25,898 nt of DNA from an uncultured bacterium (GCA_937885075.1 CAKZYZ010000434.1:1-25898); one strand, 5' to 3'; numbered from the stretch's first letter, positions 164 through 13,017 are shown. Numbers and translations are program-made. The notes: generated by a model not told the origin, from the letters alone.

Positions 164-1600
164 TTATTTAGAAAAAAATCCGATCCGGCTGAATATTGAC
201 CCCGCGCTGGAAATTATGCTCTTAAGATCGGCCCAGCTGTTTATGCTCAGGGCGGTCTGAATGATATAGGCCGGGCGAAAATAAAATTTCTTGTAGGCCC
301 GGACCCTCGCTTTCTCCGCCGCGTCCAGGGGGAACTCGGGTGTCTCGATCATCCCCAGGCAGGAAGAGAAATCCTCCCAGCTCTCATAACGGATCCAGCC
401 TTTCTCGGTTGTGGTATCAAAGAGTTCGGTTCCCGGATGCGGAATTGCCACCGCGAACTGGGCACTCCCCGGCTTGATCTTCTTCGCGAATTCTATCGTC
501 TCCCGGACCGTCTCCTCGGTCTCTCCCGGAAGCCCGAAGAGGAAGAATGCCTGAGTCCGGATCCCCACCTTCCGGGCCAGGCGGAACGCTTCCATCGCCT
601 TCTCGGTGGTGATGCCCTTCTTCATCAGCTTCAACATCCGGGGAGATCCCGATTCCACCCCGAACCGGATGTAACGGCAGCCGGCTTTCTTCATAGCCCG
701 CAGCACCTCTTCATCCATACTGTCTACCCGGCATTGGGAGATCCACTCAAACTTGATTCCCCGATCCACAATCAGCCGGCAAATTTCGAGCATCCGTTCC
801 TTATCCAGCGCCATCGAGTCATCATCAAAATATACTTCATCGATGCCGTACTTATTTACGCACTCCTCCAGTTCATCCACCACGTTCTTTGCCGTTCGGG
901 ACCGAAAATTATGCCCGTAGAGGGTATTGGGCCAGAGGCAGTATATACAGTGAAAGGGGCAGCCCCGGGAAGTAATCACCGTGGTGGGGTGCTTCCCCCG
1001 GAATGTCCCCTGGCGGTAGTTGGGGCTATCGACCAGATCCCGGGCCGGGAATGGAATCTCATCGAGATTCTCGATCACCGGACGATCCGGGTTGACTTTA
1101 ACCTCTCCATCTCTCCGCCAGGTCAGTCCAGGCACATCGGACCAATCCCGTCCTTCGGCCCGCGCCCGGACCAGATCCCGGACCGTGTAATCAAACTCAC
1201 CCCGGCAGATACCGTCCACCGAGGGATTTTCCGCCATGATCTCCTTGTGATAGACCGTGGGGTGAGAACCGATCAGGACCGTTTGGGTTGAAGGAGAGAC
1301 CTTCTTGACAGCGGCCGCGGATTGAAGATCAAAGTTGATCGAGGGGGTGGAGCACTCCAGAACCACTATATCCGGCCCGATCTCCTTTACCCGTTCCGCG
1401 AAATCTTCAATACTCAACTCCTCCAGGATCGCGTCCAGAAAACCGACCTCATATCCACTCTCCCGGACAATAGCCACCAGATAAGCGAGATAGATTGGAT
1501 ATTCAATAAATTTATCACTCCGCATATGCGGCCAGCGCACATCGGAGCGGGCCCCGAACCCTTCACCGGGCCAGGGGGGGTTTGTTATTAGTACTTTCAT
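164..1600 (-). CDS. B12-binding domain / radical SAM (class B) enzyme, probable methyltransferase-type
   Basis: 478 aa; N-terminal 'KVLITNPPW' cobalamin-binding-type beginning; canonical radical-SAM CxxxCxxC (RGCPFHCIYC); ATG at 1600; GGAG about 9 nt upstream. Confidence 0.85.
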   Translation of the reverse strand: MKVLITNPPWPGEGFGARSDVRWPHMRSDKFIEYPIYLAYLVAIVRESGYEVGFLDAILEELSIEDFAERVKEIGPDIVVLECSTPSINFDLQSAAAVKKVSPSTQTVLIGSHPTVYHKEIMAENPSVDGICRGEFDYTVRDLVRARAEGRDWSDVPGLTWRRDGEVKVNPDRPVIENLDEIPFPARDLVDSPNYRQGTFRGKHPTTVITSRGCPFHCIYCLWPNTLYGHNFRSRTAKNVVDELEECVNKYGIDEVYFDDDSMALDKERMLEICRLIVDRGIKFEWISQCRVDSMDEEVLRAMKKAGCRYIRFGVESGSPRMLKLMKKGITTEKAMEAFRLARKVGIRTQAFFLFGLPGETEETVRETIEFAKKIKPGSAQFAVAIPHPGTELFDTTTEKGWIRYESWEDFSSCLGMIETPEFPLDAAEKARVRAYKKFYFRPAYIIQTALSINSWADLKSIISSAGSIFSRIGFFSK

Positions 1601-1676
1601 AATATTTTGCTCCGCAAAATATTAGTTCTTTTTATTTTCATGACAATATTTATTTACTCCTAATTTTAATGAATCT

Positions 1677-1800
1677 GCCACAAAGGCACTAAGACACAAA
1701 GAAAAACTTAAGTAAGATTAAAAAACGTTGTTATTGCATCTTTAAATATTTTCTTTGTGTCTTAGTGTCTTTGTGGCAAAAAAGTTGCGAAGCTAAGTTC
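1677..1800. repeat. Repeat family A copy (inverted GCCACAAAGGCACTAAGACAC arms around AT-rich loop, plus AAAAAAGTTGCGAAGCTAAGTTC tail)
   Basis: Left arm 1677-1706 and right arm 1749-1777 are near-perfect reverse complements; tail 1778-1800; same architecture at 4953-5064. Confidence 0.85.
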
Positions 1801-2989
1801 TATACTCCTCACATAACTTCACAAACTCATCGGCTAAATGATCCCACCGGTATTTCTCCTCCACCAGCTTCATCCCCTCCTCTCCCATCTTTTTTGAGAG
1901 TTCACGGTCGTCGATCAGAGTTTCAATCTTGCTCACCAGGTCATCCTCATCACCCGGCTGATAAAAGAGACCGGTCTTGCCATCCTCAATCACTTCCTCC
2001 AGCGCGGGGAGACGCGGCGCCACCACCGAGAGCCCGCAGGCCCAGTATTCAAACTCCTTCAATGTTACCCTCCCCCGGGCCGAGACAATATCCGGGAGGA
2101 TGACCAGTCCGATATCCCCGGCCGACATATACCGGGATACCTCAGCCTGGGTCAGCCAGCCGGAAAAGAAAAACGCGTCGGTCAATCCGGCTTCACCCAC
2201 CATCTTCTTAAGGGCCGGGATAGCTGTCCCTTCTCCAATAATCCAGAATGCCGTCCCCGGGCGTCCGGCGCAAAGCTTTTTCGCGGCACCGACCAGCAGT
2301 TCCGGTCCATCCTGAGGATCGATCACCCCCTGGAAGATCAAGACCGTATCCTTCCCGGAAGCATGCTCCCGACGTAGATCATCACTCTGATATCTCTTAA
2401 AGATCCCCAGGTCAACCCCGTCACAGATTACTTCAATTCTATCCGCCGAGGTCCCGTACTCCAGAATGATCTCTTTCATGGCCCGGCTGATGGTGATGAT
2501 CCGGTCCGATCCCCGGATCGCGGCCGCCTCCATCTTCCGTCCGAACCGCTGGACCACTCTCAGCCATCCCCCGGAAGAATAGTCATCAAGATACTCGAAG
2601 AGGACATCGGTCAGATTCAAAACCAGAAGCGGTTTACACCCGGAGAATCTCGCTCCCAGAAGCGCCCCGTACCCGGCGATGGTATTATGCGGAACTATCA
2701 GATCGGGCTTGAATCTCCGGATCGCCCGGATCAGCCGGAACATATTAACCGGATGGGCCAGAAGATACTTCTTCATCTTATGCGGGTCCAGCCGGCTGAC
2801 TGTCTTCAGCCTGACGATCTCAGAACAACCGAGATACTCTTTCGCCTCTTCATCGCTGCTCGCGACCCCGCCCGCCACGCAGACCTCATGCCCCTGCCGG
2901 GCAAAACCCTGGATAATATTGGATATCCGGGGGCTTCCGCCCCCGGAAAGTGGATAGAGTTCTTCGAATATTGTAACCAGTACTTTCAT
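1793..2989 (-). CDS. Glycosyltransferase family 4 (GT-B, group 1)
   Basis: 398 aa; GT4-type two-domain layout; C-terminal E-x7-E-like region (GLVILPDIVSARGRVTLKEFEYWACGLSVV...EEVIEDGKTGL); ATG 2989 with GGAG upstream; stop codon TAG lies inside the tail of repeat A2. Confidence 0.85.
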   Translation of the reverse strand: MKVLVTIFEELYPLSGGGSPRISNIIQGFARQGHEVCVAGGVASSDEEAKEYLGCSEIVRLKTVSRLDPHKMKKYLLAHPVNMFRLIRAIRRFKPDLIVPHNTIAGYGALLGARFSGCKPLLVLNLTDVLFEYLDDYSSGGWLRVVQRFGRKMEAAAIRGSDRIITISRAMKEIILEYGTSADRIEVICDGVDLGIFKRYQSDDLRREHASGKDTVLIFQGVIDPQDGPELLVGAAKKLCAGRPGTAFWIIGEGTAIPALKKMVGEAGLTDAFFFSGWLTQAEVSRYMSAGDIGLVILPDIVSARGRVTLKEFEYWACGLSVVAPRLPALEEVIEDGKTGLFYQPGDEDDLVSKIETLIDDRELSKKMGEEGMKLVEEKYRWDHLADEFVKLCEEYRT

Positions 2990-3016
2990 TTTAATTGGCT
3001 CTCCTCGGTGGGGTTT

Positions 3017-3059
3017 TTATCCGACGGATCGGTCGGATCCGACCGATCCGACTGATTAA
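3017..3059. repeat. Repeat family C: GGATCC-centred REP-like palindrome
   Basis: ttatccgacggatcggtcggatcc|gaccgatccgactgattaa; imperfect at the outer end; immediately 3' of the acyltransferase gene (minus). Confidence 0.85.
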
Positions 3060-3097
3060 AAAAAACCGCCCCCCTCCATATTCACCGCCCTGGCCTG

Positions 3098-3856
3098 CTA
3101 TTCCCTGCTGTCCCCTGCCATGCCCTCCTCCTCCCTGCTCCGCACCACCCGCGCGGGAACTCCTACGGCTATCGCGTACTCCTCGATATCCTGGAGGACT
3201 ACCGCGCCGGCACCGATCACCGCTCCCTTCCCGATCGTAACTCCACCCCGGATAACGGCATGGGTCCCGATCCAGACATCTTCCCCGATCACTATCCGGC
3301 TGGGGGACCTCCCCTGGAACCGCATCGGTCGGGTCAGATCATCAAAGGTATGATCACCGCCGATAATCTCCACCTGGTTAGCGATCAGAGTATTATCCCC
3401 GATCTCTATATCTCCATAGCCATAGATAAATGAACCGGAGCCTAAGTTGATCTTCTCCCCGATCGTCACTTTCCCGAGTTGAGTCCGTATGGTCACCAAC
3501 CGGGCGATATGACTATCCGAACCTATGGTTATTCCCTCCGCCGATGCTCCGACATCAAAGAGACTTCCCTCCCCTAAAAAGACCCGGTCACCGAGGATAA
3601 GACTCTTTGGGTTATAGAAGCGAATATTCTTCTCCAGCAGGCATCTCCTTCCCAGGTCACCCAGTATCAACCGATAGATATAACCACGCAATACGGTTCC
3701 GGCGATGGTGGGAAAACAGGAGAAGAGAGTCAGCAGCAGTCCCTGCCCGAAAAACCGGCCCAGAGACCCGCTCCCATAAACTTTCTCCCGATAATGGCGA
3801 AAACCTTCCGAAAAACCACCGGCCGGGATCGTCCCTTCTCCGTCATAACCAGTCAT
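3098..3856 (-). CDS. Hexapeptide-repeat (left-handed beta-helix) acyl/acetyltransferase, WcaF/sugar O-acetyltransferase-like
   Basis: 252 aa; repeated [LIV]G-x4 hexapeptides (IGEDVWIGTHAVIRGGVTIGKGAVIGAGAVV); N-terminal hydrophobic segment; GAGGG RBS. Confidence 0.8.
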   Translation of the reverse strand: MTGYDGEGTIPAGGFSEGFRHYREKVYGSGSLGRFFGQGLLLTLFSCFPTIAGTVLRGYIYRLILGDLGRRCLLEKNIRFYNPKSLILGDRVFLGEGSLFDVGASAEGITIGSDSHIARLVTIRTQLGKVTIGEKINLGSGSFIYGYGDIEIGDNTLIANQVEIIGGDHTFDDLTRPMRFQGRSPSRIVIGEDVWIGTHAVIRGGVTIGKGAVIGAGAVVLQDIEEYAIAVGVPARVVRSREEEGMAGDSRE

Positions 3857-3881
3857 AAGAACTTATCCCTCTCTTTGTTCT

Positions 3882-3990
3882 GGCAACTTTGCCTCTAAGG
3901 AAAGCATGAAATCAGGAGAATTTAAAGTAATCCTCCTCCTGCCTTCCTGCTTTCCTTAGAGGTTATTGAAATTCCGAAGCAGTAAATTCA
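3882..3990. repeat. Repeat family B copy (imperfect hairpin cctctaaggaaagcaggaaatcaggag/ctcctcctgccttcctgctttccttagagg + tail ttattgaaattccgaagcagtaaatt)
   Basis: Shared about 100-bp element also at 12887-12995 and 21862-21992. Confidence 0.85.
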
Positions 3991-4943
3991 TCTTTGTGGT
4001 CTGCTTTTAATCTACAGGTTATCGCGACACAGATTAATTCCGCGACGACAGACCATATCCTGATAAAAACCGCAAAAATAGTACCATACCCGACCGGAAT
4101 CGAAAAGAGCGATTCTAAAAGAACCACGATAGAGAGTTCCGCTATCCCCAGACCGGCGGGCGTAAGAGGACTTATCGTTCCCAGTATCCATGATACCGCC
4201 ATTATCCCGGAGAATAACAGCCAGGAATATGCCGGAAGAGGGTGGGCCGCGAAGATATCACCGGGCAGAATAGTCAGAAGAAGATAGGTTGCCGCCCCTT
4301 TAATCAGCCAGAGACCGCACCAGTAGAGTACCAGCAGGAGGATGGAAGAGTAGCGGAGATTTACTCTCATCTCGATATGCTCAACCTTGCGGAGGAACCA
4401 GTTGAGAACCGGTTGAAAGATCCGGGGATGGAGCAGGGCCAACCCGATCGGGACCAGGGCTACCAGCAGAATGACCAGCCGGGAATCTCCGGCCACTTCC
4501 AGGCTGGGCCAGAGCGGCAATGTAGCAAGAGCGACCAATACCCCCGAGACCGCCAGGATTATCAGCATCGCGCCGACACTGGCGAGAGTTATCAACCGCG
4601 GCACCCCCTTCTTCTCCAGCATCACCACCCGACCGACCGCGGTCCAGATCTTGCCGGGGATATACTTGGCCAGTTCGCTCAGATAATATACCCGGAGAAT
4701 CTCCCCGTGTGAGACCACCTGCCCCAGGGCCCTCAGGATAAATCCCCACCCCAGGGCTACCAGGAGTCCTCCCCCCACCGTCATAATCATCGATAGAGCC
4801 AGGAGCCAGCGGTTGGCCTGAAGAAGACTCCGGGAAAATGCCTGCCAGTCAAGATCGATCAGGTTAAGAACCAGGAAATATCCGATCGCCCCCAGAATAA
4901 CAACCTGAACTATCCTGAAAATATAATGTTTGGTTATCTTCAT
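3963..4943 (-). CDS. Flippase-like / UPF0104 (lysylphosphatidylglycerol-synthase TM region-type) polytopic membrane protein
   Basis: 326 aa, about 8 predicted TM helices; N-terminus typical of this family; no SD; last 10 codons (KDEFTASEFQ) plus TAA are encoded by repeat B1 tail. Confidence 0.6.
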   Translation of the reverse strand: MKITKHYIFRIVQVVILGAIGYFLVLNLIDLDWQAFSRSLLQANRWLLALSMIMTVGGGLLVALGWGFILRALGQVVSHGEILRVYYLSELAKYIPGKIWTAVGRVVMLEKKGVPRLITLASVGAMLIILAVSGVLVALATLPLWPSLEVAGDSRLVILLVALVPIGLALLHPRIFQPVLNWFLRKVEHIEMRVNLRYSSILLLVLYWCGLWLIKGAATYLLLTILPGDIFAAHPLPAYSWLLFSGIMAVSWILGTISPLTPAGLGIAELSIVVLLESLFSIPVGYGTIFAVFIRIWSVVAELICVAITCRLKADHKDEFTASEFQ

Positions 4944-4952
4944 TAAAAAATA

Positions 4953-5064
4953 GCCACAAAGGAGCTAAGACACTAAGGAAAATAAGATACGTAGTTATTG
5001 CACCTATAATTCTTTTCTTTGTGTCTTCGTGTCTTTGTGGCAAAAAAACTGCGAAACTAAGTTC
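4953..5064. repeat. Repeat family A copy
   Basis: gccacaaaggagctaagacactaagg...ttctttgtgtcttcgtgtctttgtggc + aaaaaaactgcgaaactaagttc; about 90% identical to 1677-1800. Confidence 0.85.
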
Positions 5065-5147
5065 TTTTAACGTTCTTCTGCTTCAACGTCACTATTTTTC
5101 AACGTCAGTTATTTTAACGTTATAATTTAGCGCCAAGACGCTAAAGT
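5065..5147. repeat. Repeat family D: three to four ~16-bp-periodic TTTTCAACGTC direct repeats + E-type hairpin
   Basis: cttcaacgtcac tatttttcaacgtcag ttattttaacgtt ... aatttagcgccaagacgctaaagt; same arrangement at 18003-18091. Confidence 0.8.
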
Positions 5148-6826
5148 GTAGAGTAATCGACATCCACCCGATCGGAATGGGGCGTAATCTTTTTCTCTAT
5201 CTTCACACCTCCCGATCCGCTTAATATTTCACTGAGGCGAGCCTCATCACCCACGGCCGGGCGCGTCGAGATCAATCCGTTGGTTTTTACTTCGACTTCA
5301 ATCATAGCCTTCAGAGACCCCTCTCCCACCTCACCGGATATCTCATCCACTATCTCTATCGACTCATCCTTAAAGGTGATCGTCCGATTCAGCCGCCGGG
5401 ACGAAGCCCGGCCGGAGACCGCCGTAAGCTGAAACGAGGCGTTCTTTCTCCGGCGGATAAAATCAATCCCCTTCTTCACTATCAGATATCCGCCGGGGAG
5501 GCTGCTTATTGATTTCAGTAAAAACCGTGCCAGAGGATGAGGAAAATAATAAGAACCTTCCCGGAAGGAAGCGGTAACTTTCATCTCTCCTTCATCGGAC
5601 CAGGAGACTGTATTATCCGGGCCAAGGCGGAAAGAACTCCGGGACTTTTGATCCTGGGCCGTCAGAGTGTAGCCCCGATCCTGAAAAGAGAGATCTCCCC
5701 CCTCCGAAAATACCTTTACCAACCCTCCCGACTTTCCGGCGGATACGGCGTAATACCGCGCGGTCTTCACCGCCGCCAGGCCGCTTTCGGGGAAGAACCT
5801 CCGGAAAGGGTCGCCCTTAAACGGCAACTCCCGCCGGTCCCGACCCCATATTCCCTCATTCTCCCGGTAATGATCGTATGCCAGCAGACCATTATAGAGA
5901 TGATAACACCGGCTCAGATCATCCTGAGCTAACTGTACCATGGCATTTCCCCGGGCGATGCCCGCGGAGAAAAGTGAGCGGGCCAGAGGGGAGAATTCTC
6001 CCATGATAGATCCCGCCAAAAGTGAGATATATGAGTTTCCGCAGAGGTTATATTCCCGCCCGGTGGTCAGATCAGGATGGACGAAGTAGGCGAGGAAGTC
6101 GAGAGCCCGGCCTAACGCGTCCTTCAGCCTTTCATCCCGACTGTGGAGATAACATTGAGAGAGGTATTCCAGAGTGAGGAAGGAGTAGCCGGTATCAACC
6201 CCTCCCAATTCGGGAAACCACCCCTCCCGGGTCTGACGATCCAGGACCAGCTTTACCTTTCTCTCCGCCTCTTCGCGAAACCGGTCTTCCCCCAGTGTTT
6301 CTCCCAGGCTGTAGAGGGCGGCAGCGCCCACGGCTTCGTGGTTGATCTTATCAAGATCATCATGCCGGCAGAGCCATCCGGCGGCTCCGGAAAGTGCCTT
6401 CTTTATAACCTCGTGATCTTTGGAGCTCAACTCTTCTCTCAGTAACAAGAAGGTCTCCGAGAGAGCGAAACCGGAGAAGGCGGTCGCGGCGAATCCATGC
6501 TCTCCCGCGTACCACTCATCGAACGATCCGTCGGAATGCTGGAGTGATGCCCAGAAGAGCGCCCCGGCAACCGCCAACTCCCTGATCTCCTCGCGGCCAC
6601 GGCAGCTCACCCCCGGATAATCATTCTTATAGAGCAAGGCCAGAGTATAAACCGCTTCCTGGCAGCGAGCATTAACATAATCACTGCTCTTACTCCGCCA
6701 GTACGGGTAATAAAAACACCCATAGGTCGGCGAGAGCTGATCCCGGTCAGCCAGTTCAACCAGATCCCGCGAGGCACCGGCCATTGGGGTTATATAATCA
6801 AATACTTCTGGATTAATACCATTCAT
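5141..6826 (-). CDS. Heparinase II/III-like / polysaccharide-lyase-fold protein (possible sugar epimerase or lyase of glycan clusters)
   Basis: 561 aa; alpha/alpha-toroid-like N-terminal half and beta-rich C-terminal half recalled from Hepar_II_III family; co-located with GT4 and acyltransferase; no SD, hairpin abuts ATG; stop TAG inside repeat D1 hairpin. Confidence 0.45.
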   Translation of the reverse strand: MNGINPEVFDYITPMAGASRDLVELADRDQLSPTYGCFYYPYWRSKSSDYVNARCQEAVYTLALLYKNDYPGVSCRGREEIRELAVAGALFWASLQHSDGSFDEWYAGEHGFAATAFSGFALSETFLLLREELSSKDHEVIKKALSGAAGWLCRHDDLDKINHEAVGAAALYSLGETLGEDRFREEAERKVKLVLDRQTREGWFPELGGVDTGYSFLTLEYLSQCYLHSRDERLKDALGRALDFLAYFVHPDLTTGREYNLCGNSYISLLAGSIMGEFSPLARSLFSAGIARGNAMVQLAQDDLSRCYHLYNGLLAYDHYRENEGIWGRDRRELPFKGDPFRRFFPESGLAAVKTARYYAVSAGKSGGLVKVFSEGGDLSFQDRGYTLTAQDQKSRSSFRLGPDNTVSWSDEGEMKVTASFREGSYYFPHPLARFLLKSISSLPGGYLIVKKGIDFIRRRKNASFQLTAVSGRASSRRLNRTITFKDESIEIVDEISGEVGEGSLKAMIEVEVKTNGLISTRPAVGDEARLSEILSGSGGVKIEKKITPHSDRVDVDYSTL

Positions 6827-6850
6827 AAAATTAGCTCATTGCGCCGGGAA

Positions 6851-6898
6851 ATTATTATCCGACGGATCAGTCGGATCCGACTGATCCGTCGGATAATA
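6851..6898. repeat. Repeat family C: perfect 48-bp palindrome
   Basis: ttattatccgacggatcagtcggatcc|gactgatccgtcggataataa; 3' of the flotillin gene (minus). Confidence 0.9.
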
Positions 6899-6921
6899 AC
6901 TTCCCGAAAAAAGAGCCTGCG

Positions 6922-8379
6922 TTATTCTTCTTCCCCGGCAGCCTCGGACTCGGGCGGGGCCGGTTCGGGAGGAACCGGACCGGGAGAAGTTTTCCCATCC
7001 CCTTCCAACAACCGCGGCACCAGTTTGGTCAGATCCACTCCGGTCATCGCCTTCATCTGTTCCATGAAAGTCACCAGCGACTTCGGTGCGGCCGTCATCA
7101 AGCGGGAGACCGAACTCTCACTATCACCGGATCCGCCGTCGATGGCGATAACCTTGTCGAACTTAATATTACCGAGTGCGTCCGCCCCGGCTGCGGCCAC
7201 CACCTTGAGCGCTTCCAGGGCCAGGTTGAGCTTGGCCGCCTCTCCGTACATATCCCAGGCCCGGGCTTTCTGTTTTAGACCTTCAGCCTGCGCCTCGAGT
7301 ACCAGCTGAATCCCTTTCGCTTCAGCTTCCTTCTTCTTTAAAACGGCTGTCGCCTCTCCCTCCGCCTTCAAGATCGCGGCTAACTTCGCGGCTTGGGCCG
7401 GAACAACCATCTCCGCCTTATATTTCTGTTCTTCAGCACCGGCCCGGGCCTGTTCGGCCAGTTTCCGGGCCTGCTGATCGCGCTCTTTCACCCTCTGCTG
7501 CTCCACCACCACTGCCTGAAGAGCCTTGGCCTCGGCCAGGGGTCCCTGCTGATCGGCCCGTTTGTTGGCCGAAAGTGTCTCCCCGCGATAATTTTCCTGG
7601 GCCACATCCCGATCTTTCTGGGCTTCAGCGATCTGGCGCTCCTGCTCGGCCTTGACCACCTCCCCTTCCCGCCGGGCGGTCTCAGACTCTTTCATGGCGT
7701 CCCGTTCCGCCTGGGCCTTACCGATGGCGGCGTCCTTCTTTACCTCCGAGGTCCTCTTGACCCCAAGTGCCTCCAGGTATCCCCGCTCATCCCGGATATC
7801 CTGGATATTGATAATATCAATGATGACGCCGATCTTGGCCAGCTCTTCTCCGGACTGATCCAGGACCTTATCGACGAACATCTGCCTCTCCTGGTAGAGC
7901 TGCTCGACGGTCAGGACCCCGATAATATCACGGAGCTGACCCTCCAGTGTCTCCTTGATAATCTGTTTGATCTCCTGGGTTGAAGAACTGAGAAAACGTT
8001 CCACCGCCCGACCCAGCATCCCTTCATCACTGGAGATCTTAACATTAGCAACAGCTTCGATCGTCACCGGCACGCCTTCCTTGGAGTAGGCTTTCTCGAC
8101 CCGGACATCCTTCAGGTTGATCAGCTCAAGCGAGATACGGCTGATCTTCTCGAGGATAGGGATCTTCAGCGCTGCCCCTCCGACTATGGCTCGCCAGCCC
8201 CGCACTATCTGTTTCGTATTGCCATCCTGATCTATAACCGTAGTCCGGTACTTCCGACCGGTGAAGATCAAGGCCTCATTCGGCTCCGCCTTCCGGTAGT
8301 TACTGACAAATAAGATAAATACCGCCAGAATCCCGGCCAACGCCGCTATCACAATCAAAGGTACAATTATAACTCCCAT
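6922..8379 (-). CDS. Flotillin / SPFH (band 7) domain protein
   Basis: 485 aa; N-terminal TM; SPFH core; long Ala/Glu/Lys coiled-coil 'EA-repeat' region; Pro-rich acidic C-terminal tail; GGGAGG RBS. Confidence 0.85.
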   Translation of the reverse strand: MGVIIVPLIVIAALAGILAVFILFVSNYRKAEPNEALIFTGRKYRTTVIDQDGNTKQIVRGWRAIVGGAALKIPILEKISRISLELINLKDVRVEKAYSKEGVPVTIEAVANVKISSDEGMLGRAVERFLSSSTQEIKQIIKETLEGQLRDIIGVLTVEQLYQERQMFVDKVLDQSGEELAKIGVIIDIINIQDIRDERGYLEALGVKRTSEVKKDAAIGKAQAERDAMKESETARREGEVVKAEQERQIAEAQKDRDVAQENYRGETLSANKRADQQGPLAEAKALQAVVVEQQRVKERDQQARKLAEQARAGAEEQKYKAEMVVPAQAAKLAAILKAEGEATAVLKKKEAEAKGIQLVLEAQAEGLKQKARAWDMYGEAAKLNLALEALKVVAAAGADALGNIKFDKVIAIDGGSGDSESSVSRLMTAAPKSLVTFMEQMKAMTGVDLTKLVPRLLEGDGKTSPGPVPPEPAPPESEAAGEEE

Positions 8380-8395
8380 CTCTCGCCTCCCTTTT

Positions 8396-8432
8396 AAATT
8401 AGCTCCCTTCGGTCGCTAATTTAGTTTTAAAC
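8396..8432. repeat. Family E hairpin (aaattagc-loop-gctaattt) + conserved 'agttttaaac', 5' of flotillin RBS
   Basis: aaattagctcccttcggtcgctaattt agttttaaac; on the minus strand it lies 4 nt before GGGAGG. Confidence 0.75.
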
Positions 8433-8554
8433 AATGAATTACATTTATTTTTTTCTACTATGCCGGTTAAATGCCAATCACTATTTTCAAGATCAGAAAA
8501 TCCTGGCATCGGGTGGCCATGGAATGCTACTCCCTACTGCCCACTCCCCACTAT

Positions 8555-9109
8555 CTACTCTATTTTCGCCAACCCCGAAAAAACAGTGGTAATCGTTACC
8601 TCTTCTCCGGCCCGGAACTCCCTCTCGGGATCCACTGCCCGTGCTCTTAGATAGACGGTACTGCCGGTCCGGGGATCTTCGGATTTCACCTCCCCCGTCC
8701 CCCCCTTGAGGAGCGCGGAAGTTACCAACGCCTTCTTCCCCACCACCGACGTGCTGCTGGTCAGAGTATTGGCCTGCTGCTTATAGAGCAACTTGAGGAG
8801 TTGATAAACTATCGCGTAAACAATCACTCCGCCAATCAATCCTGATAAAATATGCGGAATCGGCCAGTGGAGACGGTAGGCCAGAAATCCCGCCAGTCCA
8901 AAGCCAATGATAAAACTGAATATCAATTTTATCCCGAGAAATCCCGGCCCACCGGCTTCGGAGATATCTCCCGCCTCCATCCCCCCCTCAACTTCAATAT
9001 CACCACCCCCCAGATCTCCCCCATCATCCCCGATCCCGAAGATAACCATAACCACCAGAAGCAGCGCCGGCAGAACAACCATCATCCCATAGATCCATTC
9101 AATTCCCAT
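8555..9109 (-). CDS. NfeD-like membrane protein (flotillin partner, YqiJ/YuaF-like)
   Basis: 184 aa; two TM segments separated by Gly/Asp-rich stretch; C-terminal OB-fold-like segment; AAGGAGGG RBS; directly upstream of the flotillin gene. Confidence 0.75.
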   Translation of the reverse strand: MGIEWIYGMMVVLPALLLVVMVIFGIGDDGGDLGGGDIEVEGGMEAGDISEAGGPGFLGIKLIFSFIIGFGLAGFLAYRLHWPIPHILSGLIGGVIVYAIVYQLLKLLYKQQANTLTSSTSVVGKKALVTSALLKGGTGEVKSEDPRTGSTVYLRARAVDPEREFRAGEEVTITTVFSGLAKIE

Positions 9110-9168
9110 CTTATCCCTCCTTATTTTTCTTTGGAGAAAAAAACTAAAATAAGATAATACCGAAAATA

Positions 9169-9196
9169 ATTATACTTCAGGTATCGAAAAAATCAA
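9169..9196 (-). promoter_or_regulatory. Sigma70-type promoter for the nfeD-flotillin operon
   Basis: Minus strand TTGATT-N16-TATAAT (-35 = 9191-9196, -10 = 9169-9174), about 50 nt upstream of AAGGAGGG and ATG 9109. Confidence 0.6.
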
Positions 9197-9457
9197 ATAT
9201 TATTAATTACTGTATGACCACCGCTAACGAATGGGGTGAAATTTGCGGTTTAACTACGGGGCCCAGGCAAGGGAATTTTTGCGAATTTTGCGCCTTTCTT
9301 GACCCGCCATCATGTCCGCCATAGCACGGAGTGCGAAGGAGGAAGCTCGAAGAGCGACGGCTGGTTTGCGGCTAATAAAGAAACCGAGGCGGGGTGAACA
9401 ATTAGTGTAAATTCGTGTAATTCGTGGACTGCGAAGGGGCCGAGGCCGGGCAATAAA

Positions 9458-10936
9458 TTAATATGAATTCGTGGACTGCGAAAAAGCTGAATCCGGCTTG
9501 AATACAAAATCCACCACGATGGGATAATGATCGCTGAGGGTCGGACTGTCATCCCGCCGCAATCCATAATCGGAGAGCTCACTCCTTTTCATGGTCTCGG
9601 TGCAGAGGATATATGACCGGACCGGCGTGATCACCGAATCGGTATAAATAACCAGGTCCATCCGGCCGGGTCCGAAACCTTTTCTCTGACTGGACTGCCA
9701 GGTGTAGGATTCCGGCGCACCGTTATGATAGGGGAAAAGATCGGTGAGAGCGGTTCCGTCCCAGTCCGGGCCTTTACCGCCTCCATGCAATAACATATCA
9801 AGCTGCCGGGACTCCCCCACCAGGTTATAATCTCCGATAATCACGATCGGAGTGCCGGGAGGAATGTCTGATTTCCCGGAGTCCTGTTTCACCCCGGCGA
9901 TAAACCTGATGATATCCTTCGCCTCCTTCCAGCGCCCGGCGTCATTCCCGCCGAAGGGGAGATGGACATTGATCACCAGAAGATCCCGGGGGAATGTTTC
10001 ATCGGGCAGATCAAAAAGGGTGGCAATATTTCCATCGATCGCACTGCTTTTTTTAATCGGGTAGCGCCCGGCCGTAACCACATCTTTCTTCCGGGAGGTC
10101 CGCCACTCCCCCCCCAGGATCTCGGTTAATATCTCCCGGACCTCCTCCTCCGAGTGACTCCCTACCTCCTGAAAAGTGATAATATCCGGCCGGATGATCT
10201 TCAAAATCTTGCTCAGCACCCATTTCTCTTTGAAGAGGTTATCCCAGAGGGTATTGTAAGTAGCCATCCGGATCGTTTCGGGGGCTTCTCTTTTCAGGGG
10301 AATCTCTTTATAATCAGGCGCTCTCTCGTCTTTGAGGAGATAGACCGAACCGGCCCCCGGGTCCGGAGCGATATCCCCGGATGAACTCCCTTCATCCCGG
10401 AGTACCCAGCGGAGCTCTTTTCCCGGGAAGAGGGTCGATCGGATACTTTCCCCGGGCGGAGCGACGAATTCTATCTCAAAATCCGATGAAGTAACAGTGG
10501 GCGCGGTTACCAGACCCAGTTCGTAAGCGTTAACCGGATTATCATCACCGCCAGCATAGAGACGGCCGGACCGCTGACCGAAACGCCATAGTAGATCGGC
10601 CCCGATCCCGTTAACCGAACGGCCGGTTGACGCGTCATTATCCGTATCCAGGTAGAGGACCAGATTATTACCGGACTGAAGCGATATCTCTTCCCCCAGT
10701 TCGAACCGGATAAATAAGCGTTTATCGTTATTGCTGAGCCAGACCCGGCCGATATCGATCCCGTCACCATCCCCGGTCTGATCGGAATAGGCCGGAGAAA
10801 TACCCGACCAGTCATCAAACCGCCCATCCGCCCGGATATCCCGTGAAGATGATCCTCGGATACACCCGGAAAAGATCATAACTCCCAGGAGGCAAATAGT
10901 AAGAATATATTGCTTCAACACAATCATAATGGTCAT
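9458..10936 (-). CDS. Secreted/lipoprotein endonuclease-exonuclease-phosphatase (EEP) family hydrolase with N-terminal beta-rich domain
   Basis: EEP motifs (ATYNTLW, ITFQEV, LSDHYPIVVDF); signal peptide with possible lipobox (IFSGC). ORF table start 10969 is TTG; I prefer the in-frame ATG at 10936 (MTIMIV...). C-terminal 5 codons overlap a repeated 16-mer. Confidence 0.65.
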   Translation of the reverse strand: MTIMIVLKQYILTICLLGVMIFSGCIRGSSSRDIRADGRFDDWSGISPAYSDQTGDGDGIDIGRVWLSNNDKRLFIRFELGEEISLQSGNNLVLYLDTDNDASTGRSVNGIGADLLWRFGQRSGRLYAGGDDNPVNAYELGLVTAPTVTSSDFEIEFVAPPGESIRSTLFPGKELRWVLRDEGSSSGDIAPDPGAGSVYLLKDERAPDYKEIPLKREAPETIRMATYNTLWDNLFKEKWVLSKILKIIRPDIITFQEVGSHSEEEVREILTEILGGEWRTSRKKDVVTAGRYPIKKSSAIDGNIATLFDLPDETFPRDLLVINVHLPFGGNDAGRWKEAKDIIRFIAGVKQDSGKSDIPPGTPIVIIGDYNLVGESRQLDMLLHGGGKGPDWDGTALTDLFPYHNGAPESYTWQSSQRKGFGPGRMDLVIYTDSVITPVRSYILCTETMKRSELSDYGLRRDDSPTLSDHYPIVVDFVFKPDSAFSQSTNSY

Positions 10937-10986
10937 TGTTAAAAACAGAACATAGCGCCTTCGGCCCAACCTCGTAGTGCAGGACT

Positions 10987-11056
10987 TCAGTCCTGCCCAA
11001 CGAAGGCAGGACTGAAGTCCTGTACTACGAGCTTATTGAAATTCCGAAACAGTAAA
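10987..11056. repeat. Family B-related element: 27-bp-stem perfect-ish hairpin + B tail (cttattgaaattccgaaacagtaaatt)
   Basis: ctcgtagtgcaggacttcagtcctgcc caacgaa ggcaggactgaagtcctgtactacgag (1 mismatch), then the B-family tail. Confidence 0.75.
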
Positions 11057-11083
11057 TTAGCGAACGAAGTGAGCTAATTTATT
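11057..11083. repeat. Family E hairpin overlapping the PPC gene stop
   Basis: aaattagcgaacgaagtgagctaattt. Confidence 0.65.
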
Positions 11084-11498
11084 GCCAGAGCGAAAGCCCG
11101 GTAGTCTCGTCATAACCCCGTTTAAGAGATTCGCCTTTAAACTCGGCAATCCGGCATTCGGCGGCAAAGATGATCGTCCCGGCACAGAGATGCCCTCCCA
11201 TGACCCGCCCTTCACGGTCCGCCAGGGTAACATGAGCGTGGACAAATATCTCCCCATCTTTCAGCGAGATATTCCCCAGACAGGAAGTAATCTCCATCGG
11301 TTCCTCAATGTCCTGCTCCCGGTACTCCCGGGCACTCTGGTCGTAATATCCGATCCGGGCTCTTTGAACCGCTCCGATTGCCATAATCGTACCGGTAGAG
11401 ATTTTCTCTCTTCGGGCCAGATCGGTAATCGCCTCCAGCAGGTCCGAATTGTGGGGAAGCCCGGTTAGTATTATCTTTCCTGTTTCATATTCTGTCAT
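11079..11498 (-). CDS. PPC (DUF296) domain protein, putative DNA-binding
   Basis: 139 aa; PPC/DUF296-like sequence as recalled; AAGGAG RBS 9 nt upstream; stop formed at edge of an E-type hairpin. Confidence 0.65.
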   Translation of the reverse strand: MTEYETGKIILTGLPHNSDLLEAITDLARREKISTGTIMAIGAVQRARIGYYDQSAREYREQDIEEPMEITSCLGNISLKDGEIFVHAHVTLADREGRVMGGHLCAGTIIFAAECRIAEFKGESLKRGYDETTGLSLWQ

Positions 11499-11520
11499 TC
11501 TATCATTCTCCTTTTGGAAA

Positions 11521-11740
11521 AGTTGAAAGTGCCTTTTGAAAAAGTTGAAAGTGCCTAAAGTGCGTTTGAAAGAAGTGCCTTAAGTGCCTAAAGTGCCTTA
11601 AGTTGAAAGTTGTCGCGTTCGCCTGGCTTTTCTATCGCCCTCATCACGGCGCCTAGCATCGAGGTCCAAAGCGACAACTTTAGGCACTTATTCATCCGCC
11701 ATAGCTTTAGCGACGGAGGAAGCGCACTTTAGGCACTTAT
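11521..11740. repeat. Repeat family F: 9-bp-periodic [T/A]AAGTGCC array; 11-bp inverted repeat (aaagttgtcgc/gcgacaacttt) flanking a 53-bp core; two inverted CTTTAGGCACTTAT copies
   Basis: GTGCC at 11529, 11551, 11575, 11584, 11593; GGCAC at 11683 and 11732; IR at 11606-11616 and 11670-11680. Confidence 0.75.
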
Positions 11741-12880
11741 AACTTCCCTTCCTCCCCTCCCCCCTCCCCACGGCTCGAACGATTCACCTTTTAAGGCCGC
11801 CACAATCCGGGATGCGGCTTTCCCATCCCCGTAAGGATTTTGAGCCCGGGCCATCCGGTCATATTCCTCAGCATCATAGAGGAGCTTATCGAGACCAGCT
11901 TCTATCCTCCCGCGATGCGGTCCGACCAGCAGACAGGTCCCGGCCTCAACTCCCTCCGGACGCTCGGTTAGATCCCGGAGTACCAGAACCGGCTTGCCCA
12001 GAGCCGGTCCCTCTTCCTGGACACCGCCGGAATCGGAGAGAAGAAGCTTCGCGCCTTTCATGGCATGGCTGAAGGCGATATAATCCAGCGGTCCGCTCAG
12101 AACAATATTAGGTTTCCCCGCTAAGATCTCATGAGCAGGCTGAGAGACCTCAGGATTGGGATGGACCGGGTACCAGAGATATATCTCCCGATGGAGGGAA
12201 AGATAATCCCGGACTGTCTCAAATACCTCCCGGATCGGCCTACCGAATATCTCCCGCCGGTGACAGGTCATCAGGACATACGGTTGATCTGCAGGAACCG
12301 GGACAGGAGGCGGATCAGTCCGATTAAGAATATCAAAGAGCGAGTCAATTACGGTATTACCGGTTATAAAGACTGCCCCGCGGGATACCCCTTCCCGGAG
12401 GAGATTTTCGGCGGCGCTTTTGGTCGGAGCAAAGTTGTATTCAGCGGCCAATCCCGCGATCTTCCGATTAAACTCTTCCGGAAACGGAGCGGAGAGGTCT
12501 CCGGTCCGCAGGCCGGCCTCAATATGACCAAAAGAAACCTGGTTGTGAAAACAAGCGATAGATACCGCCATCACCGTGGTGGTATCGCCCTGGGCCAGTA
12601 CAATATCAACCGGATTGTCAGTAAGATATTCATTCACCCCGATCAGTACCCTCCCGGCCAGGGTATTTAAGCTCTGCCCGGGTCGCATCAAATCAAGATC
12701 AACATCAGGGACGATAGAGAAGACCTCCAGTATCTGGTCGAGCATATCCCGGTGCTGGGCCGTCGCCAGAACCCGGACCCGGAAAGTATCGGCCTCAGCC
12801 CGCAGAGCGGCGATAACCGGAGCGACCTTAATCGCTTCCGGGCGGGTCCCTACTACGCAGAGTATATCCTTAATTGTCAT
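11729..12880 (-). CDS. wecB: UDP-N-acetylglucosamine 2-epimerase (non-hydrolysing)
   Basis: VVGTRPEAIKVAP N-terminal motif and overall WecB/MnaA layout. Table start 12886 is GTG; the ATG at 12880 gives the typical N-terminus. About 20 extra C-terminal residues (GGGRGGR...) are encoded by a C-rich tract that runs into repeat F. Confidence 0.88.
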   Translation of the reverse strand: MTIKDILCVVGTRPEAIKVAPVIAALRAEADTFRVRVLATAQHRDMLDQILEVFSIVPDVDLDLMRPGQSLNTLAGRVLIGVNEYLTDNPVDIVLAQGDTTTVMAVSIACFHNQVSFGHIEAGLRTGDLSAPFPEEFNRKIAGLAAEYNFAPTKSAAENLLREGVSRGAVFITGNTVIDSLFDILNRTDPPPVPVPADQPYVLMTCHRREIFGRPIREVFETVRDYLSLHREIYLWYPVHPNPEVSQPAHEILAGKPNIVLSGPLDYIAFSHAMKGAKLLLSDSGGVQEEGPALGKPVLVLRDLTERPEGVEAGTCLLVGPHRGRIEAGLDKLLYDAEEYDRMARAQNPYGDGKAASRIVAALKGESFEPWGGGRGGREVISA

Positions 12881-12886
12881 TAGCAC

Positions 12887-12995
12887 ATAGCCCTCGCCTT
12901 ACTCGGGCAACTTTCCCTCTGAGGAAAGCAGGAAATCAGGAGAATTTAAAATACTCTCTCCTCCTGCCTTCCTGCTTTCCTTAGGTGTTATTGTC
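12887..12995. repeat. Repeat family B copy (with 'tagccctcg...cgggcaacttt' head; tail diverged)
   Basis: Alignment to 21862-21992 and 3882-3990; the head contributes the putative wecB RBS. Confidence 0.8.
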
Positions 12996-13017
12996 CCGGT
13001 AATATCAATTAAGACAA

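What the first reader, a model, noticed from the sequence alone, without database searches (positions are those of the whole stretch)
1793..11740. Repeat elements donate stop codons and C-terminal residues to several unrelated genes
Read directly from the sequence:
- **GT4 gene:** ends with TAG inside the family-A tail (gaagCTAagttc).
- **Flippase-like gene (3963):** takes its last 10 codons (KDEFTASEFQ) and TAA from the family-B tail 'ttattgaaattccgaagcagtaaattcat'.
- **Heparinase-like gene:** ends TAG inside the D1 hairpin.
- **EEP gene:** last 5 codons lie in the repeated 'gaattcgtggactgcgaa' 16-mer.
- **PPC gene:** stop is the edge of an E hairpin.
- **wecB:** carries an about 20-aa Gly/Arg-rich extension from a C-rich tract that runs into family F.

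This implies the elements inserted into, or recombined at, the extreme 3' ends of ORFs, replacing native C-termini. That is a signature of targeted integration (for example into terminator hairpins) and a source of C-terminal protein variation.
Basis: seen in the sequence. Interest (0 to 1): 0.55.

Follow-up and report, generated by a model that had tools for sequence, protein, structure and literature searches.

The report
Repeat modules supply gene stop codons
In this uncultured Auribacterota-type bacterium, small hairpin-forming repeats packed between genes run into the ends of ordinary genes, giving them their stop codons and sometimes 8 to 44 extra tail residues; this effect is already known for bacterial mini-repeats, but here it is unusually dense and involves repeat families not found in the literature searched.

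Summary
All six gene ends overlap sequences that recur in the window and in 100+ loci from related metagenomes and MAGs.

- **wecB:** most relatives end ...EPWEG*. The window lost that stop and reads 10 codons to a TAA inside a family-F unit. A sister strain reads through the whole element (+44 aa).
- **LPG-synthase-like gene:** the last 8 residues (EFTASEFQ) and the TAA are a 20-nt module "T", found in at least 75 stretches across Auribacterota MAGs.
- **Ulvan-lyase-like gene:** a roughly 85-nt unit, absent in relatives, sits two codons before the older stop.
- **EEP:** extended 6-8 aa into a tandem unit.
- **GT4 and PCC:** native length kept; only the stop (plus up to 2 codons) lies in a repeat.

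C-terminal variation is real. Most cases are stop loss with read-through into stop-rich modules, or replacement of the intergenic spacer, not insertion aimed at 3' ends. The modules occur in both orientations and also abut start codons.

The same effect is documented for Coxiella QMITEs, so this is a new member of a known kind. How the modules move is unknown.

The parts
1793..2989 (-). GT4 glycosyltransferase gene; stop TAG at 1793-1795
   Evidence: Pfam hits PF00534 and PF13439. It is 398 aa in W, L002/L004 and L006, with C-termini EEYRT, EKYRN and GKWRG.
1778..1800 (-).
   Evidence: Exact second copy at 22091-22113 and a diverged copy at 5042-5064. The 20-mer occurs in 42 metagenome contigs, in front of many different hairpin families.
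1676..1778 (-). Family-A hairpin; arms are tandem 8-mers of the type CACAAAG/CTAAG
   Evidence: Inverted repeat I9, 97% complementary. Predicted dG -49.4 kcal/mol, z -8.4.
3963..4943 (-).
   Evidence: Pfam hit PF03706. Orthologue alignment shows tails of variable length after ...ITCRLK.
3963..3989 (-). Module T (CTGCTTCGGAATTTCAATAA, 3963-3982) plus degenerate prefix GAATTTA (3983-3989); together they encode EFTASEFQ and the stop
   Evidence: Copies at 11033-11052 and 21963-21982. At least 75 stretches in Auribacterota MAGs. The stop at -7 and the stop at +17 are in the same frame.
3892..3962 (-). Family-B hairpin, starting 1 nt after the LPG-synthase-like stop
   Evidence: Inverted repeat I16. 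Predicted dG -43.2 kcal/mol, z -5.1. Further copies near 12916-12993 and 21892-21962.
5141..6826 (-).
   Evidence: No Pfam hit for the window protein. Its orthologues carry a precomputed PF25840 hit. C-termini are YSTL* in the window, SIFGT* in L004/L131/L033 and SISDT* in L006.
5062..5146 (-). Family-D unit: small E-like hairpin CTTTAGCG..CGCTAAA (5126-5146) plus an ACGTTGAA-type array. It is present only in the window, 2 codons before the older head-borne stop
   Evidence: Second copy at 18005-18092 (D10). Absent at the orthologous site in L004, L131, L033 and L006, where the gene ends GGA/GAT ACT TAG in the head.
4953..5064 (-). Second family-A hairpin with its head copy (5042-5064); conserved at this site in relatives
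   Evidence: In L006 the orthologous hairpin uses CGCAGAG units on both arms.
9458..10969 (-). Endonuclease/exonuclease/phosphatase (EEP) gene; stop TAA at 9458-9460
   Evidence: Pfam hit PF03372. C-termini are ...VFKPDSAFSQSTNSY* in the window...VFEPSASAR* in L006 and ...VFDPSAD* in L051.
9385..9484 (-). Two tandem ~50-nt units (TTCGCAGTCCACGAATT...CCCGCCTCGG). The first unit supplies about 6 codons; the TAA seems to lie in the unit too, where the two copies share only TAATT
   Evidence: Exact 17-mers at 9419-9435 and 9466-9482. Similar units lie about 290 nt downstream of the EEP stop in L006.
11079..11498 (-). PCC-domain gene; stop TAA at 11079-11081
   Evidence: Pfam hit PF03479. 139 aa and ...GLSLWQ/K* in W, L006 and L051, so the C-terminus is native.
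11033..11081 (-). E palindrome TAAATTAGCTCAC-TTCG-TTCGCTAATTTA (11053-11081), whose first TAA is the PCC stop, followed by module T (11033-11052)
   Evidence: (I8). The same E-then-T arrangement recurs in many MAG loci.
10968..11034 (-). Long hairpin GTAGTGCAGGACTTCAGTCCTGCC... that follows T
   Evidence: Inverted repeat I11, 93% complementary. The segment has predicted dG -61.4 kcal/mol, z -10.2.
11729..12886 (-). wecB (UDP-GlcNAc 2-epimerase); stop TAA at 11729-11731; likely true start is the ATG at 12880
   Evidence: Pfam hit PF02350. Most orthologues are 373 aa and end EPWEG*. L051 and L054 keep the TGA that the window has lost.
11520..11745 (-). Family-F element: arrays of AAGTGCCT units around a GTTGTCGC...GCGACAAC hairpin. 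The first unit (11724-11738) holds the wecB stop and the last 2-3 codons
   Evidence: The element is orthologous in L006, L052 and L054. L051 has only a minimal hairpin at this site.
11691..11719 (-). Module M (CCTCCGTCGCTAAAGCTATGGCGGATGAA) nested in the F array
   Evidence: Present in W and absent in L006. The same kind of indel separates L016 from L020. A related copy lies near 9316-9345.
3098..3140 (-).
   Evidence: C-termini are SREEEGMAGDSRE* in the window, SRKSSEYQ* in L004 and SRKSGES* in L006. Sequence read.

Best explanation
The window is a whole contig of an Auribacterota-type (PVC group) MAG. Its intergenic spacers are almost completely filled by a lineage-specific system of small, modular, hairpin-forming repeats.

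**The modules**
- Short conserved adaptors: the E palindrome TAAATTAGCG..CGCTAATTTA; its minimal 'head' form GAACTTAGCTTCGCAAC; the 20-nt module T; and modules K and M.
- These are joined in many combinations to variable long hairpins whose arms are tandem 7-10-nt units (families A, B, C, F and others).
- The adaptors are full of TAA/TAG triplets.
- The modules behave as DNA-level dispersed elements of the REP/BIME/MITE kind. They occur in both orientations and at both ends of genes, and they are gained, lost, nested and swapped between close strains.
- Only purifying selection on coding sequence limits how far they reach, so their edges sit exactly at start and stop codons.

**Three routes by which a gene ends inside a repeat**
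1. The module abuts or overlaps the native stop position, so the stop triplet itself is module sequence (GT4, PCC).
2. A unit lands within the last few codons and its built-in stop truncates or replaces the tail (the D unit in the ulvan-lyase-like gene; module K in the L006 LPG-synthase-like gene).
3. The native or module-borne stop is lost by a point change or indel, and translation runs to the next in-frame stop inside the repeat. Examples are wecB (+10 aa here, +44 aa in a sister strain), the LPG-synthase-like gene (+8 aa, probably TAA to GAA at the position 7 nt before T) and EEP (+6-8 aa).

**Shown:** the overlaps, the dispersal of the modules, the orthologue differences and the indels.

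**Inferred:** the direction of each change, the role of selection in setting the boundaries, and any transposition or recombination mechanism. No transposase was identified.
For: **Modules are multi-copy and dispersed**
- Within the window.
- The head 20-mer occurs in 42 metagenome contigs, in front of at least 7 different hairpin families.
- T occurs in at least 75 stretches across the MAGs JAZDIV01 and CAWGIE01 and Ca. Euphemobacter, Erginobacter and Tritonobacter, usually in the order E, T, variable hairpin.
- Module K occurs in more than 10 loci.
- Hairpins are very stable: predicted dG -43 to -61 kcal/mol, z -5 to -12.

**Stops of real, unrelated genes fall at fixed module positions**
- Head TAG: GT4, the ulvan-lyase-like gene, a radical-SAM gene, a GT2 gene, a membrane protein and a 188-aa ORF.
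- The stop 7 nt before T: MnmA, a TPR protein and OAD-beta.
- The terminal TAA of T: RecJ and the window's LPG-synthase-like gene.

**Orthologue evidence**
- LPG-synthase-like tails.
- all junctions compared with L004 and L006.
- wecB stop loss, and read-through giving KGSYKCLKCAKVPKV, which is the F units translated in another frame.
- four or more different 3' ends of the LPG-synthase-like gene, including module K.

**Turnover between strains**
- spacer swap and M indel.

**No orientation bias**
-.

**Independent assembly**
-.
Against: - No transposase, terminal-repeat/target-duplication signature or parent element was found, so mobility is inferred from distribution only. The D and M filled/empty comparisons show no clear target-site duplication.
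- The exact coincidence of module-borne TAA/TAG with native stop positions could point to real target specificity for stop-codon-like sequence rather than selection alone. In OAD-beta the Pfam domain ends at residue 376 of 377, and GT4 length is conserved.
- The F element is orthologous across several lineages and could have grown in place from a terminator-like hairpin, as seen in L051, rather than by insertion.
- Exact 20-mers are conserved across genera. This is more than neutral selfish DNA would predict and hints at a host function or a co-evolving enzyme.
- Nothing shows that the extended proteins are made.
Confidence: 0.7

Rival explanations
1. Site-specific integration. The modules are moved by an enzyme that recognises stop-codon-like sequence (TAA/TAG, or an existing E palindrome or hairpin). 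On this view gene 3' ends and older hairpins are true targets, as IS200/IS605-type elements insert beside a fixed tetra- or pentanucleotide, and as some IS elements target REPs.
For: - Stops coincide exactly with module positions in many unrelated genes. Six of about ten forward-oriented head copies that follow a gene use its TAG as the stop. Several genes stop at the TAA/TAG of the prefix 7 nt before T with no loss of domain.
- Three different elements abut the same GT4 stop position in three lineages.
- Units are nested inside older arrays or hairpins.
Against: - The same modules abut start codons and occur in both orientations.
- The strain-level spacer swap has one breakpoint 1 nt before an ATG.
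- Only about one third of co-oriented T copies have the stop inside a module. The rest lie 10-400 nt away.
- No recombinase was found, and no target duplication is evident.
Confidence: 0.2
2. Structures that evolved in place. The hairpins are terminators or mRNA-stability or processing elements that grow and shrink locally by slippage of 7-10-nt units. Similarity between loci comes from shared function or gene conversion, and overlap with stops reflects tight packing of genes and terminators.
For: - L051 has a minimal F-unit hairpin followed by a T-run in a 51-nt spacer at the same site where other lineages carry 150-230-nt versions.
- Unit numbers differ between orthologous arrays.
- The convergent genes at 23533-23560 share a terminator-like hairpin that overlaps the stop region without being a dispersed repeat.
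Against: - Exact 20-nt adaptors sit in front of unrelated hairpins at over 100 loci and in several genera.
- Discrete units are present or absent between relatives (D, M, K).
- Both orientations occur.
- On the coding strand the T-run lies 5' of the family-A hairpin, and terminator-like sites are no more frequent than in shuffles (16 found, 15.1 expected).
Confidence: 0.07
3. The shared segments are native coding sequence, or the overlaps are assembly or gene-calling artefacts. Either the repeats derive from gene ends, or the tails are not real.
For: - The G-rich tract before the wecB stop is the kind of sequence prone to indel errors.
- Some database gene calls extend into repeats, for example the N-terminus VSSCLRGYFL of P0001.
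Against: - More distant orthologues lack the tails.
- The modules mostly lie in non-coding contexts (71 of 76 T copies have no long ORF running into them).
- Independent assemblies agree: L001 is 100% identical. P0058 is seen in JGI, Logan and ENA data on 3 contigs, and P0057 has 23 member sequences and 2 contigs.
Confidence: 0.03

Closest known systems
Coxiella burnetii QMITE1/QMITE2 (PMC5896051)
   Same: - Small non-coding hairpin repeats overlap the last 1-50 bp of several functional genes.
- An indel links enhC to a QMITE2 copy and gives a 33-aa repeat-encoded C-terminal extension in one strain, while another strain has a stop just before the element.
- This matches the wecB and LPG-synthase-like cases here.
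   Different: - The lineage and the sequences differ.
- QMITEs are described with terminal inverted repeats and direct repeats.
- The elements here are mosaics of much smaller adaptors plus variable hairpins, at far higher local density (6-7 of 11 consecutive genes affected).
REP / BIME / REPIN elements of Enterobacteria and Pseudomonas (REPINs: PMC3116915; BIME structure from general knowledge)
   Same: - Extragenic palindromes at hundreds of copies per genome.
- They sit next to gene ends.
- They are combined as mosaics of palindromic units and conserved linkers.
- They are conserved across related genera.
   Different: - REPs are 20-40-nt imperfect palindromes tied to a RAYT transposase.
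- No RAYT was looked for genome-wide here.
- The arms here are tandem 7-10-nt units up to 30 nt long, and there are many families.
Cyanobacterial STRR heptamer arrays and small dispersed repeats (Elhai et al. 2008, Genome Research; from my own knowledge, cited in PMC3116915 and PMC2884548)
   Same: - Intergenic arrays of 7-nt-scale tandem units in several sequence families.
- Very small (about 20-30 nt) units are found nested inside such arrays and hairpins. Module M inside F arrays behaves the same way.
   Different: - The phylum and the sequences differ.
- Here the arrays are organised as long perfect hairpins with shared adaptors.
- As far as I recall, a link to gene termini was not the focus of that work.
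Neisseria Correia elements, enterobacterial ERIC/RU elements and pneumococcal BOX (Delihas reviews: PMC2229807, PMC2759123)
   Same: - Small mobile repeats that can lie inside or overlap ORFs and add or change peptide sequence.
- BOX is modular (boxA, boxB repeated, boxC).
   Different: - Those are single defined families with known ends. Correia elements duplicate TA on insertion.
- No equivalent ends or duplications could be defined here.
Rickettsia palindromic elements (from my own knowledge)
   Same: Hairpin repeats that end up translated as part of proteins.
   Different: Those insert in frame inside genes. Here the effect is confined to the extreme 3' ends.

Membership tests
MITE | Small (under about 600 bp), non-coding, multi-copy and dispersed | tested here: met
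   Units are 20-130 nt. The head is in 42 contigs and T in at least 75 stretches. Most copies lie outside long ORFs.
MITE | Terminal inverted repeats flanked by a target-site duplication | tested here: inconclusive
   The elements are palindromic. The D and M filled/empty comparisons show no clear duplication. A TA flank on the E palindrome is possible but not consistent across copies.
MITE | A parent insertion sequence with matching ends | not tested
   No whole-genome annotation was available. The one ORF found between inverted T copies (L077:300-806) has no Pfam hit.
REP/BIME/REPIN | Extragenic palindromic units combined in mosaics with conserved linkers | tested here: met
   The orders E, T, variable hairpin and head, T-run, variable hairpin recur.
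REP/BIME/REPIN | Association with a RAYT (Y1 transposase) gene flanked by the repeats | not tested
   This needs a scan of complete MAGs.
Intrinsic (Rho-independent) terminator | G+C-rich stem followed by a U-run on the transcribed strand, oriented with the upstream gene | tested here: not met
   - The scan found 16 terminator-like sites against 15.1 expected, none at the repeat hairpins.
- The T-run lies 5' of the family-A hairpin on the coding strand.
- The modules occur in both orientations.
- Exception: the minimal hairpin in L051.
Integron attC / gene cassettes | Array of mobile promoterless cassettes, each ending in an attC site, next to an integrase | tested here: not met
   The genes are housekeeping-type and syntenic across lineages that are 69-92% identical at the protein level. 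No integrase domain occurs in the window.
CRISPR array | Regularly spaced identical repeats with unique spacers | tested here: not met
   Copies are kilobases apart and separated by genes.
Known structured RNA family (Rfam) | Match to a curated covariance model | tested here: not met
   No hit at gathering threshold in the whole window. No hit at E up to 1 in 9100-9470.
STRR/SDR-type repeats | Intergenic tandem 7-nt-scale units in several families, with tiny units nested inside them | tested here: met
   Arms and arrays of 7-10-nt units are read directly from the sequence. There is an M indel inside F arrays in two independent strain pairs. The resemblance is in behaviour only: there is no sequence relationship and the phylum is different.

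The most novel reading that the evidence does not exclude
The adaptors (E/head, T, K, M) may be a new class of ultra-small (20-60 nt) nested mobile modules that carry stop codons at their ends. A still unidentified, lineage-conserved enzyme would recognise them and direct them to gene boundaries or to existing hairpins. In Auribacterota, whole intergenic spacers would then behave as exchangeable cassettes delimited by the stop codon and the next start codon, and conserved proteins would routinely gain and lose repeat-encoded tails.
Probability: 0.2. Interest if true: 0.7.

Novelty: new member of a known kind. Interest (0 to 1): 0.4.

Why it matters
**Annotation**
- Gene ends, and some gene starts, in Auribacterota MAGs cannot be taken at face value. 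Close strains differ by 0-44 C-terminal residues in conserved enzymes because ORFs run into intergenic repeats. This will split orthologue clusters and mislead domain-boundary calls.

**Biology**
- It gives a clear, comparative example of how stop-rich mini-repeats buffer stop-codon loss and generate tail variation.
- It exposes a dense, modular repeat system in a candidate phylum. The Ace Lake Auribacterota genome paper does not mention repeats.
- Many genes have a hairpin of -40 to -60 kcal/mol within 0-15 nt of the stop codon. In E. coli, REPs that close to a stop are reported to stall ribosomes and lower expression (Liang, Rudd and Deutscher 2015; from my own knowledge). The arrangement may therefore affect expression genome-wide.
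- Exact conservation of 20-nt adaptors across genera suggests a recognising protein worth finding.

Tried and rejected
- **Rfam.** No family matched in the window or in the large EEP/hyp184 spacer.
- **Promoter and terminator scans.** Counts equal the shuffled expectation, so I dropped the view that these are ordinary terminators.
- **CRISPR and integron attC readings.** Rejected on spacing, synteny and the lack of cas or integrase genes.
- **Transposase between inverted T copies (L077).** The 168-aa ORF has no Pfam hit and its neighbour is a chorismate mutase.
- **Bulk Pfam scan of all ORFs in fetched loci.** Not run. The summary output lists only the 25 commonest families and would hide a single transposase.
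- **Target-site duplications.** None convincing around the D and M indels.
- **TA-target (Tc1/IS630-like) idea for the E palindrome.** It fits TAAATTAGC...GCTAATTTA copies but not AAGTTGCGCC...GGCGCTAACTTG copies, so I left it open.
- **The T-module TAA as a systematic stop donor.** Rejected. Only 1 of the 76 MAG T copies (RecJ in L079) uses it, besides the window's LPG-synthase-like gene.
- **Two ORFs that seemed to end in modules (L121, L069).** They look spurious (Arg/Gly-rich, no Pfam hit) and were not counted.
- **Literature.** The Ace Lake Auribacterota genome paper contains no mention of repeats, palindromes, intergenic regions, transposases or MITEs.

Full report
**Context**

The window is a complete 25,898-nt contig of an uncultured bacterium. 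An identical wecB protein (P0054) is on record from NCBI, Logan and ENA on a contig of exactly this length. The closest named relatives are Candidatus Auribacterota MAGs: Ca. Euphemobacter frigidus (wecB 72% identical), Erginobacter, Tritonobacter and 'PVC group bacterium'.

From 164 to 14683, eleven genes lie head-to-tail on the minus strand:
- radical SAM
- GT4 glycosyltransferase
- hexapeptide transferase
- LPG_synthase_TM-family membrane protein
- an ulvan-lyase-N-like protein
- Band 7 protein
- a 184-aa hypothetical protein
- EEP (endonuclease/exonuclease/phosphatase)
- PCC-domain protein
- wecB
- an amidohydrolase

The ten spacers between them are 95-348 nt long. They are filled with inverted and direct repeats.

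**Check of the observation**

In 100 dinucleotide-preserving shuffles none reached the observed counts.

I also mapped, base by base, where sequence around each stop codon recurs in 717 kb of related but non-orthologous loci. Repeated sequence starts:
- 8 nt before the GT4 stop
- 23 nt before the LPG-synthase-like stop
- 2 nt before the PCC stop
- 8 nt before the wecB stop
- from about -19 to -5 for EEP

For the radical-SAM gene, Band 7, hyp184 and the amidohydrolase it starts only after the stop.

The ulvan-lyase-like TAG lies in the small hairpin CTTTAGCG-TCTTGG-CGCTAAA at 5126-5146. The hairpins are real and very stable, with predicted dG of -43 to -61 kcal/mol and z-scores of -5 to -12. 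An independent assembly from another metagenome (L001) is 100% identical across the LPG-synthase/T/B junction. The corrections of detail are listed in the observation check.

Syntenic loci from two related lineages were recovered. In L002-L005 and L006-L008 the orthologous proteins are 69-93% identical to the window's. Further loci were fetched for wecB and for the LPG-synthase-like gene.

*wecB.* Most orthologues, down to about 60% identity, are 373-374 aa. The closest clade ends ...EPWEG/TG/DG*.
- L051 and L054 keep a TGA right after that Gly.
- In the window the TGA is gone. Translation runs through a G-rich spacer to the TAA inside the first AAGTGCCTAAAGTGC unit of family F (+10 aa, ...GGRGGREVISA*).
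- L006 does the same (+8 aa).
- L052 and L053 read the F units in another frame. This gives ...KGSYKCLKCAKVPKVV... and a 44-aa extension.

*LPG-synthase-like gene.* Distant orthologues end at ...CRLK. Close relatives carry at least five different ends:
- RLKS* in L131.
- RLDAGSKKE* in L004, with module T lying 7 nt downstream.
- ...ANHKDKKIDN* in L130, with the TGA inside the leader of a CGCAGAG-type hairpin.
- C-LIFPSKK* in L006, encoded by a dispersed module K that occurs in more than 10 loci.
- A 29-aa read-through of module K in L132.
- The window's ...ADHKD-EFTASEFQ*.

*Ulvan-lyase-like gene.* In L004, L131, L033 and L006 it ends GGA/GAT ACT TAG inside the head motif. The window has an extra unit of about 85 nt (family D) two codons upstream, and that unit brings a new TAG.

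*EEP.* It ends ...PSASAR* in L006 and ...PSAD* in L051. The window has ...PDSAFSQSTNSY*, and the extra codons lie in a tandem unit of about 50 nt.

*GT4 and PCC.* Both keep exactly the same length in all lineages compared. For these two genes only the stop triplet, and up to two codons in GT4, is repeat sequence. Three different elements abut the same GT4 stop position in three lineages.

**What the repeats are**

Scanning public collections with two of the short tails showed they are not tails of particular families. They are conserved adaptors.

It sits in front of hairpins built from quite different 8-nt units: CACAAAG, CACAGAG, CGCAGAG, CGGATTA, CACGAAT, CTGATT and others.
All but nine of these stretches are from MAGs of this group. 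T is usually preceded by a small palindrome E (TAAATTAGCG-loop-CGCTAATTTA and variants). It is followed by a variable hairpin or by its own inverted copy.
- The head motif looks like a variant of the E palindrome with a much reduced stem; this is my reading of the sequences.

Between strains whose flanking genes are 90-97% identical, a whole spacer is replaced. One breakpoint is at GAACTTAGC, so the stop is kept and the protein ends ...LLRRT* in both strains. The other breakpoint is 1 nt before the ATG of the next gene.

A unit of about 30-57 nt (module M) is present or absent inside F arrays in two independent strain pairs. At one orthologous site the hairpin uses CACAAAG units in the window and L004 but CGCAGAG units on both arms in L006.

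The modules have no orientation preference relative to genes. T is co-oriented with its left-hand gene in 40 cases and opposed in 33. The head is forward in about 10 distinct loci and reversed in about 15. In reverse orientation the head sits 2-9 nt before ATG codons.

This is the behaviour of DNA-level dispersed repeats of the REP/BIME/MITE kind. It is not that of strand-specific RNA elements or classical terminators.

**How gene ends come to lie in them**

The adaptors are rich in TAA and TAG. Across the fetched loci, stops of genuine, unrelated genes fall at fixed module positions:
- the TAA at the left edge of E (PCC)
- the TAG in the left arm of E (the ulvan-lyase-like gene here; GT4 in L004)
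- the head TAG (GT4 here; the ulvan-lyase-like gene in four relatives; a radical-SAM gene; a GT2 gene; a membrane protein; a 188-aa ORF)
- the TAA/TAG of the prefix TAAnTTn 7 nt before T (MnmA, a TPR protein and OAD-beta, whose Pfam domains are complete)
- the terminal TAA of T (RecJ in L079 and the window's LPG-synthase-like gene)

The stop at -7 and the stop at +17 are in the same frame. The window reads GAA where other copies read TAA at -7. The simplest reading of EFTASEFQ is therefore a TAA-to-GAA change followed by read-through to the next module stop. This step is inferred.

About a third of the T copies that follow a co-oriented gene have the stop inside a module. The rest lie 10-400 nt away. 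Only 1 of the 76 MAG copies uses T's own TAA. Donation is thus a frequent by-product, not the purpose of the elements.

**Verdict on the interpretation**

The claim of C-terminal variation is strongly supported. Insertion or replacement within the last codons is shown for the D unit and for module K. Stop loss with read-through is shown by the DNA for wecB and is inferred for the LPG-synthase-like gene and EEP. GT4 and PCC are unchanged in length.

'Targeted integration at 3' ends' is not supported as stated, because the same precision is seen at start codons and in both orientations. A weaker form remains possible: a preference for stop-like sequence or for existing hairpins. I give that about 0.2. 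No transposase was found, and the mechanism of spread is unknown.

**Comparison with what is known**

The effect matches what has been described for Coxiella QMITE1/2. There, repeats overlap 1-50 bp of the 3' ends of several genes, and an indel fuses enhC to a QMITE2 to give a 33-aa extension (PMC5896051). Delihas's surveys of ERIC/RU and other small mobile sequences that contribute peptide sequence describe similar effects (PMC2759123, PMC2229807).

In architecture the system is closest to BIMEs/REPINs (PMC3116915) and to modular BOX elements. In its 7-10-nt tandem units and nested mini-insertions it recalls cyanobacterial STRR/SDR repeats (my own knowledge). The Ace Lake Auribacterota genome paper does not mention repeats.

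The finding is therefore a new member of a known kind. It is notable for its density (6-7 of 11 consecutive genes) and for the clear comparative record. It is of moderate interest.

Noticed in passing
window 3098-3140 (hexapeptide-transferase 3' end): The last ~11 residues (EEEGMAGDSRE*) are encoded by tandem ~10-nt ...CAGGG... units. Orthologues end SRKSSEYQ* (L004) or SRKSGES* (L006). This is probably a seventh gene whose tail is repeat-derived.
   Followed up: partly
window 8520-8554; L004 about 3511-3545; L006 about 5140-5175: After the stop of the 184-aa gene lies an array of 8-nt units. The unit differs by lineage at the same site: GGGAGTAG-like in the window and L004, GGGAATAG-like in L006. 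All units have changed together, which suggests concerted change or element replacement.
   Followed up: no
L006 13264-13680 and 16541-16963: Two small PF05635 (23S rRNA intervening-sequence protein, four-helix-bundle) genes lie in intergenic spacers that are gene-free in the window and L004. They are flanked by GGTTGCG/GGTTACG 7-mer repeats. They may be mobile small genes travelling with a lineage-specific repeat family.
   Followed up: no
window 9230-9400 versus L006 about 3935-4100: A conserved non-coding block of about 150 nt (GCCGCAAACCAGCC...GCTATGGCGG...GGTCAAGAAAGGCGCAAAATTC) lies after the tandem units in the window. In L006 it lies directly after the EEP stop, so the spacer has been rearranged. 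There is no Rfam match. It could be an unrecognised small RNA or another module.
   Followed up: partly
window 15752-16084 (+), inside ORF 15033-16115: Three 120-nt (40-aa) in-frame tandem repeats (DYDGDG..DIAIFR..GLWA.R..TR.YFG), 63-77% identical at DNA level. The protein has no Pfam hit at E up to 0.001.
   Followed up: no
window 23530-23563: The convergent genes (amidohydrolase on the plus strand, FAD oxidoreductase on the minus strand) are separated by 28 nt that form one perfect hairpin, TAAAACAAC-GGATTAATTT-GTTGTTTTA. Each gene's stop is followed immediately by a TAA that forms the outer end of the stem. This is a bidirectional terminator-like structure and not a dispersed repeat.
   Followed up: no
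window 24690-24806: Two 53-nt direct repeats (89% identical, 64 nt apart) lie in the divergent promoter region between the oxidoreductase gene and the gene starting at 24879. They may be paired operator or binding sites.
   Followed up: no
L131 2192 (protein P0001 N-terminus); loci L013, L018, L025, L034, L036, L040: Repeats also touch gene starts. P0001 is called with an N-terminal VSSCLRGYFL that is the translated arm of the family-A hairpin. The head motif in reverse orientation sits 2-9 nt before ATG codons with no obvious Shine-Dalgarno sequence. Start-codon calls in these genomes may be unreliable.
   Followed up: partly
L051 2165-2215: In one relative the wecB-PCC spacer is only 51 nt. 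It holds a minimal hairpin made of one F unit per arm followed by a T-run, whereas other lineages have 150-230 nt at this site. It is either the seed from which the large F element grew or a deletion remnant.
   Followed up: partly
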